Notes under the pieces: model-generated
Seen by the model: the letters and a program-made list of their open reading frames with translations, nothing else
Databases searched by the model: none
What the model was told of the DNA's origin: nothing
In this document: positions 26,712-31,387 of the stretch, piece by piece
Layout: each line of letters opens with the position of its first letter
Position numbering within the stretch: position 1 is the first letter of the stretch
Assembly: GCF_000007145.1 (NCBI RefSeq)
Contig: NC_003902.1
Location: 1,147,436-1,179,435, forward strand
Length of the DNA stretch: 32,000 nt
Direction: 5' to 3'
Source: Xanthomonas campestris pv. campestris str. ATCC 33913
GTDB lineage: Bacteria; Pseudomonadota; Gammaproteobacteria; Xanthomonadales; Xanthomonadaceae
Translations under genes and position numbers: made by a program

Positions 26712-26739
26712 TTGACGATCTCCGCCGCTGCCCTATAAT
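26712..26739 (+). promoter_or_regulatory. strong sigma-70-like promoter for tRNA-Val
   Basis: TTGACG (26712-26717), a 16-nt spacer, then TATAAT (26734-26739), about 18 nt upstream of the tRNA 5' end. Confidence 0.6.
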
Positions 26740-26756
26740 GTGCGGCTCGCGTCACC

Positions 26757-26831
26757 GGGCGGTTAGCTCAGCGGTAGAGCATTGCCTTCACACGGCAAGG
26801 GTCACAGGTTCGATCCCTGTACCGCCCACCA
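26757..26831 (+). tRNA. tRNA-Val (anticodon CAC), encoded CCA
   Basis: The acceptor GGGCGGT pairs with ACCGCCC, followed by A-CCA. The D-arm is GCTC-AGCGGTA-GAGC, the anticodon stem-loop is TTGCC-TTCACAC-GGCAA, and the T-arm is ACAGG-TTCGATC-CCTGT. Confidence 0.93.
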
Positions 26832-26848
26832 TATTTGTAGTGTTTACG

Positions 26849-26877
26849 AAAAAAACCGGCCAATGGCCGGTTTTTTT
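26849..26877 (+). terminator. rho-independent terminator after tRNA-Val
   Basis: A7-CCGGCC-AAT-GGCCGG-T7. Confidence 0.8.
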
Positions 26878-26923
26878 CGTAAATGCGAGGTAAGTGCAGT
26901 GGGCCATGGACAGGGGGGGTTCT

Positions 26924-27799
26924 ATGTTCCAGATCGTGCAAGTTCCAAGTGGTGCTGCTGACTTGCCAGAGCAGATGGGAACCAAAGCGAAGTTCTGGTT
27001 TGACGACAGTCGTCGTCTCTTTAAGGAGGGGCGACCTGGGACTGGGGAAAACTGGGCAGAGGTGATTGCAGCCGAGCTAGCGGCCCTCCTCGGTTTGCCG
27101 CACGCTACGTATAGCTTGGCAGAGTATGAAGGCCGACGAGGTGTGGTTACCGAATCCTTTGTTCCATCTGGCGCGCGGCTCATCCTTGGCAATGAGCTGA
27201 TTGGCTTCGCAGCCCGTGAGACGGTGAGTAGGCACACTAGGGGCCAAGCACACACCATTGGCCGCCTGAGCAGCCTCCTGAATAGACCGCAGGTTGCGCT
27301 TCCAAGCGGATGGGTCTCACCGACGTCCTTTTTCAACGCGGCAGATGTGATGTCTGGATATCTTCTGCTCGATGCTTTGATCGCAAATCAGGATAGGCAT
27401 GAGGAGAACTGGGGCCTCATCAACTCACACGGTGCAATCTACCTCGCGCCGACGTTTGATCACGCTTCAAGTCTAGGTAGGAATGAGACAGATCAAAGGC
27501 GAATACAGAAGTTGGACGCAAACCATCCTGATCATGGTGTTCTTGGATATGCAAGGAGAGCAAAGGTGCCCATTTACGACGGCATGGGCCCATTGCAATC
27601 AGGTGAAGCTTTTTTTGCATTTGCCAGATCATGCCCAGATAAAGGAGCTTACTGGCTAAATCGACTCCATGAGCTGGATCCGAGTAGTTTCTTGGCACTG
27701 CTAAATAGAATTCCTGTAGGTTGGATTACAGATCCAGCCCGCCGCTTTGCTGCCGAGCTCCTCAAGGTCAACAGAGACCGACTTTTGGACGAAAAATGA
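26924..27799 (+). CDS. HipA-family Ser/Thr protein kinase core (HipT-like; lacks the HipA N-terminal subdomain)
   Basis: The catalytic loop 'DALIANQDRHEENWGL' fits the D-x-H-x-x-N pattern of HipA_C. The Mg-binding segment is 'LAPTFDHASSLG', and the Gly-rich loop equivalent is 'EQMGTKAKFWF'. ATG 26924 is preceded by AGGGGGG. The ORF opens at 26894. Confidence 0.8.
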   Translation: MFQIVQVPSGAADLPEQMGTKAKFWFDDSRRLFKEGRPGTGENWAEVIAAELAALLGLPHATYSLAEYEGRRGVVTESFVPSGARLILGNELIGFAARETVSRHTRGQAHTIGRLSSLLNRPQVALPSGWVSPTSFFNAADVMSGYLLLDALIANQDRHEENWGLINSHGAIYLAPTFDHASSLGRNETDQRRIQKLDANHPDHGVLGYARRAKVPIYDGMGPLQSGEAFFAFARSCPDKGAYWLNRLHELDPSSFLALLNRIPVGWITDPARRFAAELLKVNRDRLLDEK

Positions 27800-28530
27800 A
27801 ATCCCTCTACCTCGCCATTCAACAACATGAAAGTCGTCGCTGGTCTCCTGTAGCTAAGGTTACAAAGAACGGAGGTGTCTATCGTCTGGTGTATACGAAG
27901 GGCGCATGGGAGGTGCCGGGCTTCAGCGGATTTGCGCGCATGGAAGATCTGTATCAAGAGTACCGCTCTGCGGAAATTTTTCCGATCTTGAAAAATCGGA
28001 CTTTGCCTCGGTCGCGGCCTGAGTATCAAAATTATATTTTATGGCTTGGTCTCTCACCAGAAGAGCATGACGAACTTGACGAGTTGGCGAGATCTGGCGG
28101 TATTCGTGCTACAGACCAAATCGAGCTGATTCCTGCGCCAGAGAGGAAAGAAGACGGAAGCTTTGAGGCTTTCTTTTTTGTGCGTGGCATCAGTTACATT
28201 CCGGGAACCGCTGATATCGACTTGAAAATCGGTGATCGCCTCTTTGTCATGAAGGACTTTCAGAACGAGCAGGATTCCGCGGCATTGCTTTTGCGCACTG
28301 GAGATCCGGTGTCAGTAGTTGGGTACGCTCCGAGGTACTACAGTCACGACCTTTCCCGTTTAGCGGAACTTTGCCCGCCTCAGGATCTTTTGGTGACAGT
28401 TGAGCGGCTTAATAATAATGCTCCTGCTGCTTATAAGGTGCTTTGTAAGGTCGTGGCACCTTGGCCGGCGGGCTTCGATTTTTTCGGCTCCCATGTGTTT
28501 GATGAAGTGCCGAAAGCTCCGGTGTCTTAG
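27796..28530 (+). CDS. HipS-like (HipA N-subdomain-like) domain fused to a HIRAN domain; putative partner/antitoxin of the upstream kinase
   Basis: The ATG overlaps the kinase stop (ATGA at 27796-27799). The N-terminal ~115 aa 'LYLAIQQHESRRWSPVAKVTKNGGVYRLVYTKGA...IFPILKNRTLPRSRPEYQNYILWLGLSPEEHDELDELARSGGIRATDQIELIP' follows the HipA N-terminal pattern (..pfF.NLLPEg..r..l...lGls..d.f.lL...G.D..Ga..l.p). The C-terminal 'FFVRGISY...LKIGDRLFVMKDFQNEQDSAALLLRTGDPVSVVGYAPRYYSHDLSRL' follows the HIRAN pattern. Both assignments are from memory. Confidence 0.7.
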   Translation: MKSLYLAIQQHESRRWSPVAKVTKNGGVYRLVYTKGAWEVPGFSGFARMEDLYQEYRSAEIFPILKNRTLPRSRPEYQNYILWLGLSPEEHDELDELARSGGIRATDQIELIPAPERKEDGSFEAFFFVRGISYIPGTADIDLKIGDRLFVMKDFQNEQDSAALLLRTGDPVSVVGYAPRYYSHDLSRLAELCPPQDLLVTVERLNNNAPAAYKVLCKVVAPWPAGFDFFGSHVFDEVPKAPVS

Positions 28531-28927
28531 ATGGTTTGAGCCTTTACTGATTATGCTCTTATGGTGTCCTTGGCTTTAGTAGATTTCGTCTACGGAATTA
28601 AGTCCGGAGGCTGGGATGGGTAGCAACGATGAGCTATCTCCGAAGACTCATGCGTTCGTTCAGGCGTTCGTTGCAGGAATTTAGTCAGCGAGCCGCGGTG
28701 GTGGTCGCGTCGGCGCGTTGCATGCACACGCAACGTACACCCGCGTAAGAAGTTTTTCACCTGCCGGTAGCGGTGGTGCGCGGAAGGTAGCGCGCAGATG
28801 CGGCGGCGGTGCGGATGGGGTGGGGGCGAAGCGCTGCGATGGGAACGATCGGTTCACTTGCAGGCAGCCCCCGACAGTCCGGCCGCAGCGCAGCGACCCT
28901 GACGCGCTACTCGACGGAGACAGACCC

Positions 28928-29152
28928 ATGCGTACGCAAAGTCGAATGATGGTGGCTGGAACACGCCGGTTTCCGGTGTATGAGGTGCGCGTCAGCGAGC
29001 AGGGTGCGGTGACGCGCCATTACACGGTCGGCGAGCTGGGCGGGTGCTTCGGCGATCTGGCCGCTGCAGCCGCGTCGGCACAGAGCCTGCTGGACACGGC
29101 CGATCTGGTGATGCCGCCTGCGCCCGGCGATCTGCAGCTGGCGTTGCGCTGA
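28928..29152 (+). CDS. hypothetical small protein (74 aa)
   Basis: GGAG lies 8 nt upstream of ATG 28928. The high-GC ORF reads 'MRTQSRMMVAGTRRFPVYEVRVSEQGAVTRHYTVGELGG...'. I recognise no family. The longer 144-aa version from 28718 looks non-coding. Confidence 0.35.
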   Translation: MRTQSRMMVAGTRRFPVYEVRVSEQGAVTRHYTVGELGGCFGDLAAAAASAQSLLDTADLVMPPAPGDLQLALR

Positions 29153-29359
29153 CGCTGCGCCTCCTTCGGCGGCCAGCCGCCGTGCGGTCGCTGTAGCGGT
29201 GTGCTGTGCGTTCGACGCGTGCACTGCGGCGTGCGTCACCTTTTTGCCAGGCTGGTGAATCCCAACCGGCCGCAATGGGATTGCGGTGGCGTCTGCTTAT
29301 TGCAGGGCCGTGGGAGAACCGCCATCCTGCTCGGCCCTGGATTCAACGAAGGAGTGGCG

Positions 29360-29689
29360 ATGAAGACGCTGCTTGGAACTGCATTGGCTGCGAGCCTGCT
29401 CCTGCTGGCCGGTTGCGCCAAAGACATGGGCGAGGAATTCGTGGGCAAATGGGTCAACGCCAAGGCGCCGAAGAACGTGCTGAGCATCGAGCACAACGGC
29501 GAAAGCTTCATCATTCGCGATACCCGGCCCGAGCTGTTCGGCAACGGGGTGAAGACCAAGAACTATCCGGCGGTACTGCGTGGCGATGTGCTGCAGGTTT
29601 CCAATGGCGTGGGCACGATCAACTACGCCATCGATCAGTCGACCGGCAACCTGAGCACCGGCGAATCCGAGTACACACCGGTCAAGTAG
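29360..29689 (+). CDS. small secreted lipoprotein (109 aa)
   Basis: GGAG precedes ATG 29360. The signal peptide and lipobox are 'MKTLLGTALAASLLLLAGC'. Confidence 0.7.
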   Translation: MKTLLGTALAASLLLLAGCAKDMGEEFVGKWVNAKAPKNVLSIEHNGESFIIRDTRPELFGNGVKTKNYPAVLRGDVLQVSNGVGTINYAIDQSTGNLSTGESEYTPVK

Positions 29690-29785
29690 TGCGTGCCTGC
29701 GGGCGCAGGTGCAGCGTCAGTCGCAAAAGCCGTGCCGCGGCGATCTGTTCTAGCGCTAGTACTCAAGCGCGCGTGCGTGCGCCGG

Positions 29786-31387
29786 TCACTGCGAAGAAGC
29801 GAGCTCCTGTGCCTGCATCCAGCGCCAGAGGGTGGTGCGCGAGACGCCCAACGCTTTGGCTGCGGACGCGCGGTTGCCCTGCGCACGTTCCAGTGCCGCA
29901 CGTACCAATGTCGCGGTGAGGTGCGCGCGCGAGCTGGCTGCGTCGGCGGATGTGGAATCGTAGCCCGCTGGCGTGCTGGCATCGGCCAGCTCCGGAGCCC
30001 AGGCCTCGAGCTGGGCCAGACTCACCTGGCCCTGTGCTTGCGCCTTCCAATGAATGCACAGACGCTCGACCAGGTTACGTAGCTCACGCACGTTGCCGGG
30101 CCAGGCGTGCTGTTGCAGTCGCTGCAGCGCAGCGGGCGAGAGTGGCAATGCCGTCTCGCTGCCGTGTTGCGCGTAGTGCGTGAGTAACAAGGCGATGTCG
30201 TCGGGGCGATTCCGCAGCGGCGGCAGGTCGATGCGCAACGCGGCCAGGCGATAGAACAGGTCGCGGCGGAAGCGCCCCTGGTCGACGAGTGTCTGCAGCG
30301 GCTGCAGGCTGGCCGCCACCACGCGCACATCGACCGGTACCGGCACGGTGGCGCCAACGCGCAGCACCTCGCGTTCTTCCAGTACACGCAGCAGGCGGGT
30401 CTGCAGCGGCAGTGGGAGCTCGCCGATTTCATCGAGAAACAGGGTGCCGTCCTGCGCGGCTTCGATCAGCCCTGTGTGGCCGCCGCGCCGCGCGCCGGTG
30501 AAGGCGCCATCGCTGTAGCCGAACAGTTCCGCTTCCAGCAGCGACTCGGTGATCGCGCCGCAGTTGATCGCCACAAACCGGCCCCGGCGGCGGCTGCCGG
30601 CGTGCAGCTGCCGCGCAACCAGCTCCTTGCCGGTGCCGGTCTCTCCGCTGATCAACACGGTGCTGGCGTGCGGCGCGTACAGCTGCACCAGTGCGCGCAC
30701 CTGCACCATGGCGGTGTCTTCGCCGAGCAGTGCGGCCGGTTGGTTGCGCGTGCGGCGTGTGGCATTGCGTAGAGCGGGGGCTGCGCTGCTGGGCGCGGTG
30801 GCCAGGGCGATCGCCTGGTCGAGCGCCAGGCGGACCGAGTCGGCCGAGTACAACAACACGCCGGGCAGGCCGGCCTGTTCGGCGAAGTCGATCGCCATGC
30901 CGGTCCCGACGATCACCTGGATGCCGCTGGCACGCAGGTCGGCGATGCAGTCGCGGGCGTCCTCGGCAGTGACGAAGCGGCGGTGGGCGATGTCCAGCGC
31001 GAAGCTGTCCTGGAACGGCTGAAATGACGGCACGTCGGTGGCATGGGTCACCACGCCGATGCGCGGTGCGATGCGGCGCGCGCGCGCCAGTGCTTCCATC
31101 AGGTCGAAGCCGGTGGCCTGGATCGGCGCCAGCGGCAGCGGTAGCCGGCTGCGCAGGTAAGCGGCGTTGGAGCCGCCAGCCACCAGCACATCGCAGCGCT
31201 CGCGGCGCAGGCGCTGGCCGATGACCTCGACCGCCTCGGCAAAGCCGAGGTTGATCTGCTCAATGTGTGCGCGCTGGTCGAACTCGGGAATGACATCGGC
31301 CAGCAGGCCGGTCAGGCGCGACACGCTGACCGTCCAGATCACCGGCAGGGTGCCATCCGCAGGAGCGACGAAGGAGGAGTGAGGCAT
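29786..31387 (-). CDS. prpR: sigma-54-dependent propionate catabolism regulator PrpR
   Basis: PrpR_N-type N-terminal domain. The AAA+ sigma-54 activation domain has 'SGETGTGKELVA' and 'ELFGYSDGAFTGA'. The C-terminal Fis-type HTH is 'AAKALGVSRTTLWRWM'. The gene is divergent from prpB. ATG 31387 ('MPHSSFVAP') is chosen. Confidence 0.9.
   Translation of the reverse strand: MPHSSFVAPADGTLPVIWTVSVSRLTGLLADVIPEFDQRAHIEQINLGFAEAVEVIGQRLRRERCDVLVAGGSNAAYLRSRLPLPLAPIQATGFDLMEALARARRIAPRIGVVTHATDVPSFQPFQDSFALDIAHRRFVTAEDARDCIADLRASGIQVIVGTGMAIDFAEQAGLPGVLLYSADSVRLALDQAIALATAPSSAAPALRNATRRTRNQPAALLGEDTAMVQVRALVQLYAPHASTVLISGETGTGKELVARQLHAGSRRRGRFVAINCGAITESLLEAELFGYSDGAFTGARRGGHTGLIEAAQDGTLFLDEIGELPLPLQTRLLRVLEEREVLRVGATVPVPVDVRVVAASLQPLQTLVDQGRFRRDLFYRLAALRIDLPPLRNRPDDIALLLTHYAQHGSETALPLSPAALQRLQQHAWPGNVRELRNLVERLCIHWKAQAQGQVSLAQLEAWAPELADASTPAGYDSTSADAASSRAHLTATLVRAALERAQGNRASAAKALGVSRTTLWRWMQAQELASSQ

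What the first reader, a model, noticed from the sequence alone, without database searches (positions are those of the whole stretch)
27796..28530. Partner protein fuses a HipS-like domain to a HIRAN domain, suggesting a DNA-structure-gated kinase inhibitor
Residues ~1-115 follow the HipA N-terminal pattern ('VAKVTKNGGVYRLVYTKGA', 'IFPILKNRTLPRS...LWLGLSPEEHDELDELARSGGIRATDQIELIP'). In HipBST that part is supplied in trans by HipS and acts as the antitoxin. Residues ~125-230 ('LKIGDRLFVMKDFQNEQDSAALLLRTGDPVSVVGYAPRYYSHDL') follow the HIRAN pattern. In HLTF/Rad5-type proteins HIRAN binds 3'-OH ssDNA ends at stalled forks. A fusion of this kind implies that kinase inhibition could be released or enforced when the HIRAN moiety engages free DNA 3' ends, for example at damaged forks or on phage DNA. 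This is inference from domain logic only.
Basis: inference. Interest (0 to 1): 0.75.

Follow-up and report, generated by a model that had tools for sequence, protein, structure and literature searches.

The report
HipA-like kinase with HipS-HIRAN partner
The gene really does encode a protein that joins a HipS-like kinase-binding domain to a HIRAN DNA-end-binding domain, next to a short HipA-type kinase. This two-gene module was already described by bioinformatics in 2021 as "hipIN" and is listed as a candidate phage-defence system, so it is an ordinary member of a known, experimentally untested family.

Summary
Window 27796-28530 (+) encodes a 244-aa protein. Residues 124-222 are a HIRAN domain (Pfam E 2.8e-11; structural matches to HLTF, lp_0118 and Rad5). 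A high-confidence model of residues 1-118 has one real match in the PDB: HipS of Legionella (7VKB chain B, TM 0.69/0.78). 14 of 37 family members also hit Pfam Couple_hipA.

The gene overlaps (ATGA) an upstream 291-aa kinase gene. That kinase lacks HipA N-subdomain-1 but keeps the catalytic and Mg-binding Asp residues. The kinase precedes the HIRAN gene in 54 of 60 related loci.

Gerdes, Baerentsen and Brodersen (mBio 2021) defined this pair as hipIN (HipI kinase plus HipN = HipS-like + HIRAN). They also proposed the same idea: DNA-end sensing activates the kinase and causes abortive infection. PADLOC lists the pair as candidate system PDC-M03 (E 1e-80 and 1e-102).

I found no experimental test in the searchable literature. 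The DNA-gating mechanism remains inference. The 3'-OH-binding Asp is conserved, but one of the two base-pinching tyrosines is not.

The locus is a low-GC two-gene islet beside tRNA-Val in Xanthomonas campestris. Sibling strains carry decayed alleles.

Novelty: new member of a known kind. Interest is about 0.3.

The parts
26757..26831 (+). tRNA-Val (anticodon CAC). The islet begins just downstream of it.
   Evidence: ARAGORN; Rfam tRNA, 70 bits. A sigma-70-like promoter at 26712-26739 matches 11 of 12 positions.
26843..26883 (.). Perfect 20-bp inverted repeat with A/T-rich outer ends (TTTACGAAAAAAACCGGCCA / TGGCCGGTTTTTTTCGTAAA). It looks like a bidirectional terminator between the tRNA and the kinase gene.
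   Evidence: the repeat finder pair I1, 100% complementary, 1 nt between the arms; sequence.
26924..27799 (+). HipI-type short HipA-superfamily Ser/Thr kinase, 291 aa. It has a Gly-rich loop (EQMGTKAK), a catalytic loop (NQDRHEEN, D157) and a Mg-binding FDH motif (D179). It has no N-subdomain-1.
   Evidence: The ORF opens at GTG 26894, but ATG 26924 follows the AGGGGGGG run and matches the 290-291 aa homologs. PADLOC PDC-M03A, E 2.1e-102. Pfam HipA_C, 28.2 bits, which is below the cut-off. The family profile hits CtkA 3AKJ at 2e-11 and HipT_Lp at 2e-3. hhalign maps D157/N162/D179 to HipA D309/N314/D332.
27796..28530 (+). HipN-type partner, 244 aa. Its start overlaps the kinase stop (ATGA).
   Evidence: PADLOC PDC-M03B, E 2.5e-80. 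Full-length AF2 model: pLDDT 92.1, pTM 0.87.
27796..28149 (+). HipS-like domain (aa 1-118): five strands and three main helices, with invariant residues Y33, F62, P63, N67, R68, R74, L97, G102, T106, D107 and P115.
   Evidence: Foldseek match to 7vkb_B = HipS_Lp, TM 0.69/0.78. 14 of 37 family members hit Couple_hipA. hhalign aligns FPILKNR with the HipA FNFFDNL motif. Conservation.
28165..28461 (+). HIRAN domain (aa 124-222), with D160 at the position of the 3'-OH-binding D94 of HLTF.
   Evidence: Pfam PF08797, E 2.8e-11. Foldseek matches to HLTF 4S0N/4XZF/4XZG, lp_0118 3K2Y and Rad5 6L8O. Profile hit to 3K2Y. hhalign mapping to HLTF. Residue roles from PMC5773155.
26850..28650 (.). Low-GC islet (about 0.47-0.55, against about 0.65-0.73 in the flanks) that holds only the two genes. 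It has no integrase and no repeat of the tRNA 3' end.
   Evidence: Composition profile. The tRNA 3' end occurs only once in the window. The same chromosomal slot is occupied in X. fragariae and Xanthomonas sp. NCPPB 1128.

Best explanation
This is a hipIN-type two-gene conflict module, also listed as PADLOC candidate PDC-M03. It sits in a small horizontally acquired islet next to tRNA-Val in Xanthomonas campestris.

Shown here: gene 1 is a short HipA-superfamily kinase (HipI type) with intact catalytic and Mg-binding aspartates but without HipA's N-subdomain-1. Gene 2 (HipN type) overlaps the kinase stop codon (ATGA), an arrangement compatible with translational coupling. It supplies the missing subdomain in trans as a HipS-like fold, and the predicted model packs that fold rigidly against a HIRAN domain. 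The pair is inherited as a unit across Proteobacteria, plasmids and temperate phages.

Inferred by analogy with HipS-HipT (7VKB, 7AB5): the HipS-like domain docks beside the kinase Gly-rich loop and keeps it in an ATP-incompetent state. The HIRAN domain monitors free DNA 3'-OH ends, such as linear phage genomes, replication intermediates or degraded DNA. Engagement of an end changes or releases the HipS-like contact. The freed kinase then phosphorylates an essential host factor, most likely in translation as for HipA/GltX and HipT/TrpS. This stops growth and aborts the infection.
For: Domain identities. Kinase motifs: and the A4 invariants.

Conserved pairing: the kinase lies immediately upstream on the same strand in 54 of 60 HipN-anchored loci. 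All 3 kinase-anchored loci are followed by a HipN homolog. Identity of the two proteins to the window pair co-varies across loci (Pearson r 0.91, Spearman 0.54). No third gene is conserved next to the pair.

Conflict-system context: PADLOC PDC-M03A/B. Neighbours include Thoeris, GmrSD+PIN, and RM type I, AriA and PbeA. The pair lies beside the integrase in a Vibrio prophage-like element and in C. difficile phage phiCDKH02. It also occurs on plasmids.

Toxin-like behaviour of the kinase: X. campestris alleles exist with a frameshifted kinase and intact HipN, and with an IS3 element that removes the kinase catalytic end together with the HipN N-terminus. No listed allele has an intact kinase with a broken HipN.

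HIRAN pocket: D160 aligns with HLTF D94, which reads the 3'-OH, and is at least 90% conserved. Y134 aligns with Y72.

The same model is proposed in PMC8262856. The HipS inhibition mechanism comes from PMC9325769 and PMC10627512.
Against: Nothing here shows binding, inhibition, toxicity, DNA binding or phage defence, and I found no experimental paper on HipI, HipN or PDC-M03.

The HipS-like assignment of this particular protein rests on one PDB chain at Foldseek E 1.2e-2. Its own sequence does not hit Couple_hipA, and hhalign against the HipA N-terminus is weak.

The position of HLTF Y93 is not conserved, and the hhalign match to HLTF has low probability.

In HipA the same subdomain is present in cis in an active kinase, so a HipS-like fold is not inhibitory by itself.

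In the window itself the islet has no defence-gene neighbours. The neighbour scan had no control set. The allele argument uses only 15 of 33 listed cluster members.
Confidence: 0.5

Rival explanations
1. It is a plain type II toxin-antitoxin (addiction) module. HipN is a labile antitoxin that simply sequesters the kinase. The HIRAN domain serves DNA binding for operon autoregulation, taking the place of HipB's HTH, or it stabilises the protein. It does not sense DNA ends.
For: Tight two-gene unit with overlapping genes and mobile, patchy contexts. Decay alleles lose the kinase first or lose both genes together. No HTH regulator accompanies the pair, so some DNA-binding function for autoregulation would be expected.
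Against: Characterised HIRAN domains recognise 3' ends, not specific sequences (PMC5773155). The 3'-OH-binding Asp is conserved, which is not expected for an operator-binding role. No inverted-repeat operator was seen apart from the terminator hairpin after the tRNA.
Confidence: 0.2
2. It is a split kinase rather than a toxin and its inhibitor. HipN is an obligate structural or targeting subunit that completes the HipA fold. The assembled complex is the active enzyme. HIRAN recruits it to DNA 3' ends, where it phosphorylates DNA-associated phage or host replication or repair proteins.
For: In HipA the homologous N-subdomain-1 is part of an active kinase. HipL proteins carry the kinase, the HipS-like domain and HIRAN in one chain (PMC8262856), so the HipS-like domain cannot be a purely removable inhibitor there. 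The pTM of 0.87 suggests that the HipS-like and HIRAN domains form one rigid body. The two genes overlap and their sequences co-vary across loci.
Against: Both characterised HipS proteins inhibit their kinase. Orphan HipN genes occur without a kinase (L008, L025, L060). Natural alleles that break the kinase but keep HipN fit toxin logic.
Confidence: 0.2
3. It has a housekeeping DNA-repair or replication-fork role, analogous to HLTF/Rad5 HIRAN proteins, with the kinase as a damage-signalling enzyme.
For: HIRAN is known from fork-remodelling proteins.
Against: The locus is a low-GC islet that varies and is often inactivated within one species. It is patchily distributed, is carried on plasmids and prophages, and lies next to defence genes. 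No repair genes are linked to it.
Confidence: 0.05

Closest known systems
hipIN modules: HipI kinase + HipN putative antitoxin (Gerdes, Baerentsen, Brodersen, mBio 2021, PMC8262856)
   Same: The kinase is short (291 aa, within the stated 279-321 range), lacks N-subdomain-1 and has its Gly-rich loop near the N-terminus with a Thr beside it. [quoted passage not shown] The gene order is kinase first. The proposed function is also the same: DNA-end sensing leading to abortive infection.
   Different: Nothing architectural differs. That paper had only 14 hipIN modules, and no Xanthomonas entry appears in the supplementary text that is held. Here the N-domain family has 1,466 representatives at 50% identity. 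Placement in the HipI subclade of their tree was not tested.
PADLOC candidate defence system PDC-M03 (PADLOC-DB v2.0.0)
   Same: Both proteins match its A and B models almost end to end (E 2.1e-102 and 2.5e-80).
   Different: PDC-M03 is a candidate only. I found no experimental validation.
HipBST (E. coli O127:H6; L. pneumophila Lpg2368-2370)
   Same: The HipA fold is split: a short kinase plus a separate HipS-like protein. The N-domain model superposes on HipS_Lp. In those systems HipS inhibits the kinase by acting on its Gly-rich loop.
   Different: There is no HipB/HTH third gene. The gene order is reversed, with the kinase first. The HipS-like domain is fused to HIRAN. Its sequence is too diverged for a Couple_hipA hit. 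HipS Trp65 is not obviously present. If HipS W65 corresponds to HipA L64, the matching position would be the invariant R68. That correspondence is my inference and was not verified.
HipL kinases (PMC8262856)
   Same: They use the same three domains: kinase core, HipS-like domain and HIRAN.
   Different: HipL has all three in one polypeptide. Here they are split over two genes. No HipL-type architecture appeared among the best 150 N-domain hits.
HLTF / Rad5 HIRAN and lp_0118 (3K2Y)
   Same: The fold is the same, and the 3'-OH-binding Asp is conserved.
   Different: There is no helicase or RING domain. The Y93 equivalent is not conserved, and the F142 region could not be aligned.
CtkA (JHP0940) of Helicobacter pylori, PDB 3AKJ
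   Same: It is the closest solved structure to the kinase by sequence profile (E 2e-11 over most of its length).
   Different: CtkA is described as a kinase translocated into host cells. Whether it has a HipN-like partner was not examined.

Membership tests
hipIN (HipI/HipN) module | Short HipA-homologous kinase (279-321 aa) that lacks N-subdomain-1 and has its Gly-rich loop near the N-terminus | tested here: met
   The kinase is 291 aa. The Gly-rich loop G19-T20-K21-x-K23 is invariant or nearly invariant. There is no Couple_hipA or HipA_N hit. Homologs are 290-310 aa.
hipIN (HipI/HipN) module | Conserved Hip kinase core motifs (catalytic Asp, Mg-binding Asp) | tested here: met
   D157/N162/D179 align with HipA D309/N314/D332 and with the motifs of HipT_Lp and CtkA. 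All are invariant in alignment A4. The activation-loop motif was not mapped.
hipIN (HipI/HipN) module | Downstream gene whose N-terminal domain is HipS-like | tested here: met
   Foldseek match to 7vkb_B (HipS_Lp), prob 1.00, TM 0.69/0.78. 14 of 37 family members hit Couple_hipA. The window sequence itself is below detection.
hipIN (HipI/HipN) module | C-terminal HIRAN domain in the same protein | tested here: met
   Pfam HIRAN, 43.5 bits against a cut-off of 24.7. Foldseek matches to HLTF, lp_0118 and Rad5.
hipIN (HipI/HipN) module | [quoted passage not shown] | not tested
   The reference HipI sequences (Table S1) are not held as text, so no tree was built.
hipIN (HipI/HipN) module | HipN neutralises HipI (toxin-antitoxin behaviour) | not testable with these tools
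   There is only indirect support: allele decay patterns and conserved synteny.
PADLOC PDC-M03 | Adjacent genes that match the PDC-M03A and PDC-M03B HMMs | tested here: met
   E 2.1e-102 (aa 11-299 of the 301-aa ORF) and E 2.5e-80 (aa 1-237). The genes overlap by 4 nt.
HipBST tripartite TA | Three genes, hipB-hipS-hipT, with an HTH HipB | tested here: not met
   No HTH gene is present. The order is kinase then HipS-like gene. tRNA-Val lies upstream and small unannotated ORFs lie downstream.
HIRAN domain (PF08797), 3'-end-binding type as in HLTF | Asp that reads the 3'-OH (D94) and two aromatic residues that pinch the terminal bases (Y72, Y93) | tested here: inconclusive
   D160 = D94 is conserved. 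Y134 = Y72 (His in the family consensus). Q159 = Y93 is variable. The alignment has low hhalign probability but agrees with the 3K2Y alignment.

The most novel reading that the evidence does not exclude
HipI/HipN is a bacterial protein kinase activated by DNA ends. The HIRAN pocket captures a free 3'-OH end. Because HIRAN and the HipS-like domain form one rigid body (pTM 0.87), this movement withdraws an invariant HipN residue (candidate R68, in the FPxxxNR motif that aligns with the HipA/HipS loop next to the kinase Gly-rich loop). That would switch the kinase on. This would be a minimal prokaryotic counterpart of the logic of DNA-end-activated kinases. The natural X. campestris alleles (intact, kinase-frameshifted, IS-disrupted) would serve as ready-made controls.
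Probability: 0.3. Interest if true: 0.7.

Novelty: new member of a known kind. Interest (0 to 1): 0.3.

Why it matters
A kinase whose inhibitor is wired to a domain that reads DNA 3' ends would be a compact way for a cell to turn "foreign or broken DNA is present" into a shutdown of growth. If confirmed, it would add a new sensing principle to Hip-type toxin-antitoxin and anti-phage systems. That hypothesis has been in print since 2021 and the family is already in PADLOC, so this window adds no new concept. It does add three practical things:
- structural-prediction support for both domains;
- evidence that the family is far larger than the 14 modules first reported;
- a tractable host (X. campestris, including reference strains ATCC 33913 and 8004) with natural intact and broken alleles for a first experimental test.

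Tried and rejected
- Sequence-only detection of the HipS-like half failed for this protein. It had no Pfam or NCBIfam hit. The family profile found no HipS or HipA chain in the PDB. hhalign against the E. coli HipA N-terminus gave only E 0.15.
- Foldseek with the full-length model returned only HIRAN structures in its top 50. The N-domain had to be modelled separately.
- Foldseek of the N-domain against viral structures (BFVD) gave nothing meaningful.
A 15-sequence alignment worked.
- I looked for island boundaries. There is no repeat of the tRNA-Val 3' end and no convincing direct repeats. No integrase lies nearby. No RNA family other than the tRNA was found.
- The consensus scan found no promoter directly upstream of the kinase gene.
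- Literature searches for experimental work on HipI, HipN, HipL or PDC-M03 gave only the 2021 paper and incidental mentions. Several apparent 'HIRAN' hits were the surname Hirano.
- I could not obtain HipS sequences to map Trp65 residue by residue, so the R68 correspondence is only a lead.
- An apparent HipS-only partner in L070 turned out to be a frameshifted HipN.
- The PADLOC scan of 125 neighbouring ORFs lacked a control set, so it is used only as anecdote.
Full report
**What is at the coordinates.**
- Window 27796-28530 (+) is an open reading frame of 244 codons.
- Its ATG overlaps the stop codon of an upstream ORF on the same strand (ATGA at 27796-27799).
- The upstream ORF opens at GTG 26894. 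ATG 26924 is preceded by an AGGGGGGG run and gives 291 aa, which matches the length of the homologs (290-291 aa). It is also the exact protein recorded on 235 X. campestris contigs.
- The 244-aa protein is identical to NCBI 'HIRAN domain-containing protein [Xanthomonas campestris]', recorded on 255 contigs.
- Reference-strain entries (AAM40326, AAY50263) annotate a 269-aa form from TTG 27721. All homologs begin at the MKxL start, so 27796 is the better start.

**Setting.**
- The two genes lie directly after tRNA-Val(CAC) at 26757-26831 and a perfect 20-bp hairpin at 26843-26883.
- GC drops from about 0.65-0.73 to about 0.47-0.55 between roughly 26850 and 28650.
- There is no second copy of the tRNA 3' end in the window. 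No integrase is nearby. No other Rfam family is present.
- The only sigma-70-like promoter in the region is the tRNA promoter at 26712-26739.
- The flanks are core genes: the fab cluster, pabB-like, mltG/YceG, holB and pilZ upstream, and prpR and prpB downstream.
- X. fragariae and Xanthomonas sp. NCPPB 1128 carry the pair in the same slot, at 79% and 73% nucleotide identity.

**C-terminal half.**
- Pfam HIRAN matches aa 124-222 (E 2.8e-11, 43.5 bits, cut-off 24.7).
- A profile of 43 family members hits the bacterial HIRAN structure 3K2Y.
- The AlphaFold2 model of the whole protein is confident (pLDDT 92.1, pTM 0.87).
- Its best PDB matches are the HLTF HIRAN domain (4S0N, 4XZF, 4XZG, 5BNH, 6KCS), lp_0118 (3K2Y) and Rad5 (6L8O).
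- I verified the HLTF HIRAN sequence against the PDB and aligned it to the family profile.
- D160 falls on HLTF D94 and is at least 90% conserved. Y134 falls on Y72. Y177 falls on H110 and R180 on K113. Q159 falls on Y93, and that column is variable.
- In HLTF, D94 reads the 3'-OH, and Y72 and Y93 pinch the two terminal bases (PMC5773155).
- The pocket is therefore partly conserved. The hhalign probability is low, but the register agrees with the independent HMMER alignment to 3K2Y.

**N-terminal half.**
- By sequence alone the window protein is not recognisable. It has no Pfam or NCBIfam hit. The family profile finds no HipS or HipA chain in the PDB.
- Residues 1-118 are as conserved as the HIRAN half, with invariant Y33, F62, P63, N67, R68, R74, L97, G102, T106, D107 and P115.
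- Modelled alone with the family alignment, they give a confident fold (pLDDT 91.3).
- Foldseek against the PDB returns one real match, 7vkb_B (probability 1.00, TM 0.69 on the query and 0.78 on the target, rmsd 3.0 Å, 13% identity, E 1.2e-2). Everything else has probability 0.12 or less.
- 7VKB is the HipT-HipS complex of Legionella pneumophila, and HipS_Lp is the 102-residue chain (PMC9325769).
- Scanning the 37 family N-domains one by one, 14 hit Pfam Couple_hipA, the HipA N-terminal domain (best E 1.2e-4). No other family is hit more than once.
- hhalign against the N-terminus of E. coli HipA is weak (E 0.15). It does place FPILKNR on the FNFFDNL signature.
- Taken together, the HipS-like assignment is sound at family level. 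For this protein it rests on the fold.

**The kinase.**
- The upstream protein matches PADLOC PDC-M03A (E 2.1e-102). It matches Pfam HipA_C only weakly (28.2 bits, cut-off 30.5).
- A 38-member profile hits H. pylori CtkA (3AKJ, E 2e-11, most of the length) and HipT_Lp (E 2e-3).
- hhalign against E. coli HipA aligns D157, N162 and D179 with D309, N314 and D332.
- These residues and the Gly-rich loop G19-T20-K21-x-K23 are invariant or nearly invariant in the family.
- There is no N-subdomain-1. This is the situation of HipT, where the missing subdomain is supplied by HipS.

**The pair as a unit.**
- In 60 loci that encode a HipN homolog, 54 have the kinase homolog immediately upstream on the same strand.
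- Two of the six exceptions are cut by contig ends. In one, the HipN gene is truncated and lies next to a transposase-like gene. In three, HipN is an orphan: after a PP2C phosphatase gene, after a VapBC-like pair, and after a 1,527-aa helicase-nuclease gene.
- Three kinase-anchored loci all have a HipN homolog downstream. One of these is frameshifted.
- Identity of the kinase and of HipN to the window pair co-varies across loci (Pearson 0.91, Spearman 0.54).
- No third gene is conserved next to the pair.
- The N-domain profile finds 1,466 cluster representatives (E ≤ 1e-3) among 1.84 billion proteins. Nearly all of the best 150 are 240-270 aa with the domain at the N-terminus. The longer ones still carry HIRAN.

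**Context elsewhere.**
- Homologous pairs lie beside Thoeris genes and beside GmrSD and PIN genes.
- They occur on cyanobacterial and actinobacterial plasmids.
- They lie next to the integrase in a 14-kb Vibrio prophage-like element and in C. difficile phage phiCDKH02.
- Among 125 neighbouring ORFs from 18 loci, some match PADLOC models for type I RM, AriA, PbeA and mad2. This scan had no control set.
- An independent paper reports that HipA-domain and HIRAN-domain gene pairs cluster with diDNase genes in Gram-positive islands, and notes that PADLOC predicts them as defence genes (PMC11706625).

**Variation within X. campestris.**
- The window carries the intact allele.
- A sibling assembly (GCA_020813085.1) is 99.8% identical over 14 kb. 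It lacks one base at window 27586, which truncates the kinase to 244 aa, while HipN stays intact at the protein level.
- Another lineage (CP062066.1, CP067005.1) has an IS3-family transposase gene in place of the segment from kinase residue 178, just before the Mg-binding FDH, to HipN residue 48. This leaves a 177-aa stub (88 contigs) and a 196-aa stub (55 contigs).
- Among the listed variants, none has an intact kinase with a broken HipN. Only 15 of 33 cluster members were listed, so this is suggestive only.
- The pattern fits a costly or toxic kinase whose partner cannot be lost first.

**What is already known.**
- Gerdes, Baerentsen and Brodersen (mBio 2021, PMC8262856) defined hipIN modules. 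[quoted passage not shown] They also defined HipL, a single-chain fusion of kinase, HipS-like domain and HIRAN.
- They proposed that HipN's HipS-like domain neutralises HipI.
- They also proposed that the HIRAN domains recognise DNA ends of invading phages or replication intermediates, which activates the kinase and causes abortive infection.
- Their data set held 14 hipIN modules, and no Xanthomonas entry appears in the supplementary text that is held.
- PADLOC-DB lists the pair as candidate PDC-M03.
- I found no experimental study of HipI, HipN, HipL or PDC-M03.

**Mechanism, and how much of it is shown.**

Shown:
- the domain identities;
- the intact catalytic residues;
- the gene overlap and conserved synteny;
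- mobility;
- the decay pattern.

Inferred from HipBST:
- HipS binds where HipA's N-subdomain-1 sits and blocks the Gly-rich loop. It does this by a loop-to-helix shift in Legionella and by insertion of Trp65 in E. coli O127.
- HipN's N-domain probably does the same to HipI.

Inferred from HLTF:
- the HIRAN domain binds a free 3'-OH end.

Inferred from the rigid two-domain model (pTM 0.87):
- DNA binding could be transmitted to the kinase contact.

Unknown:
- the target of the kinase;
- the trigger;
- whether HipN is released, degraded or rearranged.

A serious alternative is that HipN is a constitutive targeting subunit of a split kinase rather than a removable inhibitor. HipA and HipL both carry this subdomain in cis.

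**Verdict.** It rediscovers a published, still uncharacterised family. The window holds an ordinary, intact member in a small islet at tRNA-Val.

Noticed in passing
window 27586 (kinase gene); L063/L064: Sibling X. campestris assemblies that are 99.8% identical over 14 kb lack one base here (context catgGGCcc). This frameshifts the kinase to a 244/250-aa product, while HipN stays intact at the protein level. It could be real pseudogenisation of a toxic kinase. A sequencing error is less likely, because the 244-aa form is recorded on about 20 contigs.
   Followed up: partly
L067/L068 (X. campestris pv. campestris CP062066.1, CP067005.1), corresponding to window ~27455-27940: An IS3-family transposase gene (381 aa, HTH_Tnp_1 + rve) replaces the segment from kinase residue 178 to HipN residue 48. 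This leaves a 177-aa kinase stub (88 contigs) and a 196-aa HipN stub (55 contigs). Both genes were inactivated in a single event.
   Followed up: partly
window 26712-26923: A strong sigma-70-like promoter (TTGACG-16-TATAAT) drives tRNA-Val. A perfect 20-bp hairpin follows the tRNA, and the kinase start lies only about 40 nt after the hairpin. No promoter of its own was detected. The pair may depend on read-through from the tRNA promoter or on a non-consensus promoter.
   Followed up: no
window 27721-27795 and 26894-26923: Start-codon issues. Reference annotations give HipN 269 aa from TTG 27721, and mechanical ORF calling gives the kinase 301 aa from GTG 26894. Homolog alignments and the G-rich ribosome-binding site favour ATG 27796 (244 aa) and ATG 26924 (291 aa).
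   Followed up: yes
window 28530-29990: Between HipN and prpR, X. campestris has about 1.4 kb of high-GC DNA that X. fragariae lacks at this position. It holds two small ORFs without Pfam hits: a 74-aa ORF at about 28928-29152, and a 109-aa ORF at 29360-29689 that has a lipoprotein-like signal (MKTLLGTALAASLLLLAGC).
   Followed up: partly
L061 (Vibrio phage 10N.286.55.A12_PE001, 10953-12646); L062 (Clostridioides phage phiCDKH02): hipIN-like pairs sit as accessory cargo right next to the integrase in a 14-kb PM2-like (Vinavirales) Vibrio element and in a C. difficile temperate phage. This fits a role in prophage-encoded exclusion or defence.
   Followed up: partly
L008 5920-7643; L060 1678-6838; L025 1238-2710: Orphan HipN homologs occur without a kinase. 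One follows a PP2C-family phosphatase gene (Pfam PP2C_2, E 5.8e-15). One follows a 1,527-aa helicase + MTES_1575 nuclease protein. One follows a VapBC-like pair. The phosphatase pairing is odd for a protein thought to control a kinase. All three come from metagenome-assembled genomes (MAGs).
   Followed up: partly
kinase, window 26924-27799: The closest solved structure by sequence profile is CtkA (JHP0940) of H. pylori (3AKJ, E 2e-11), not HipA or HipT. A HipN homolog also occurs in a Helicobacter cetorum MAG (L050). Whether CtkA itself has or once had a HipN-like partner was not checked.
   Followed up: no
HipN residue R68 (window 27997-27999): The invariant Arg in the FPxxxNR motif aligns with HipA L64. 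If HipS Trp65 corresponds to that position, R68 would be the counterpart of the residue that HipS wedges beside the kinase Gly-rich loop. I could not obtain HipS sequences to verify this.
   Followed up: no
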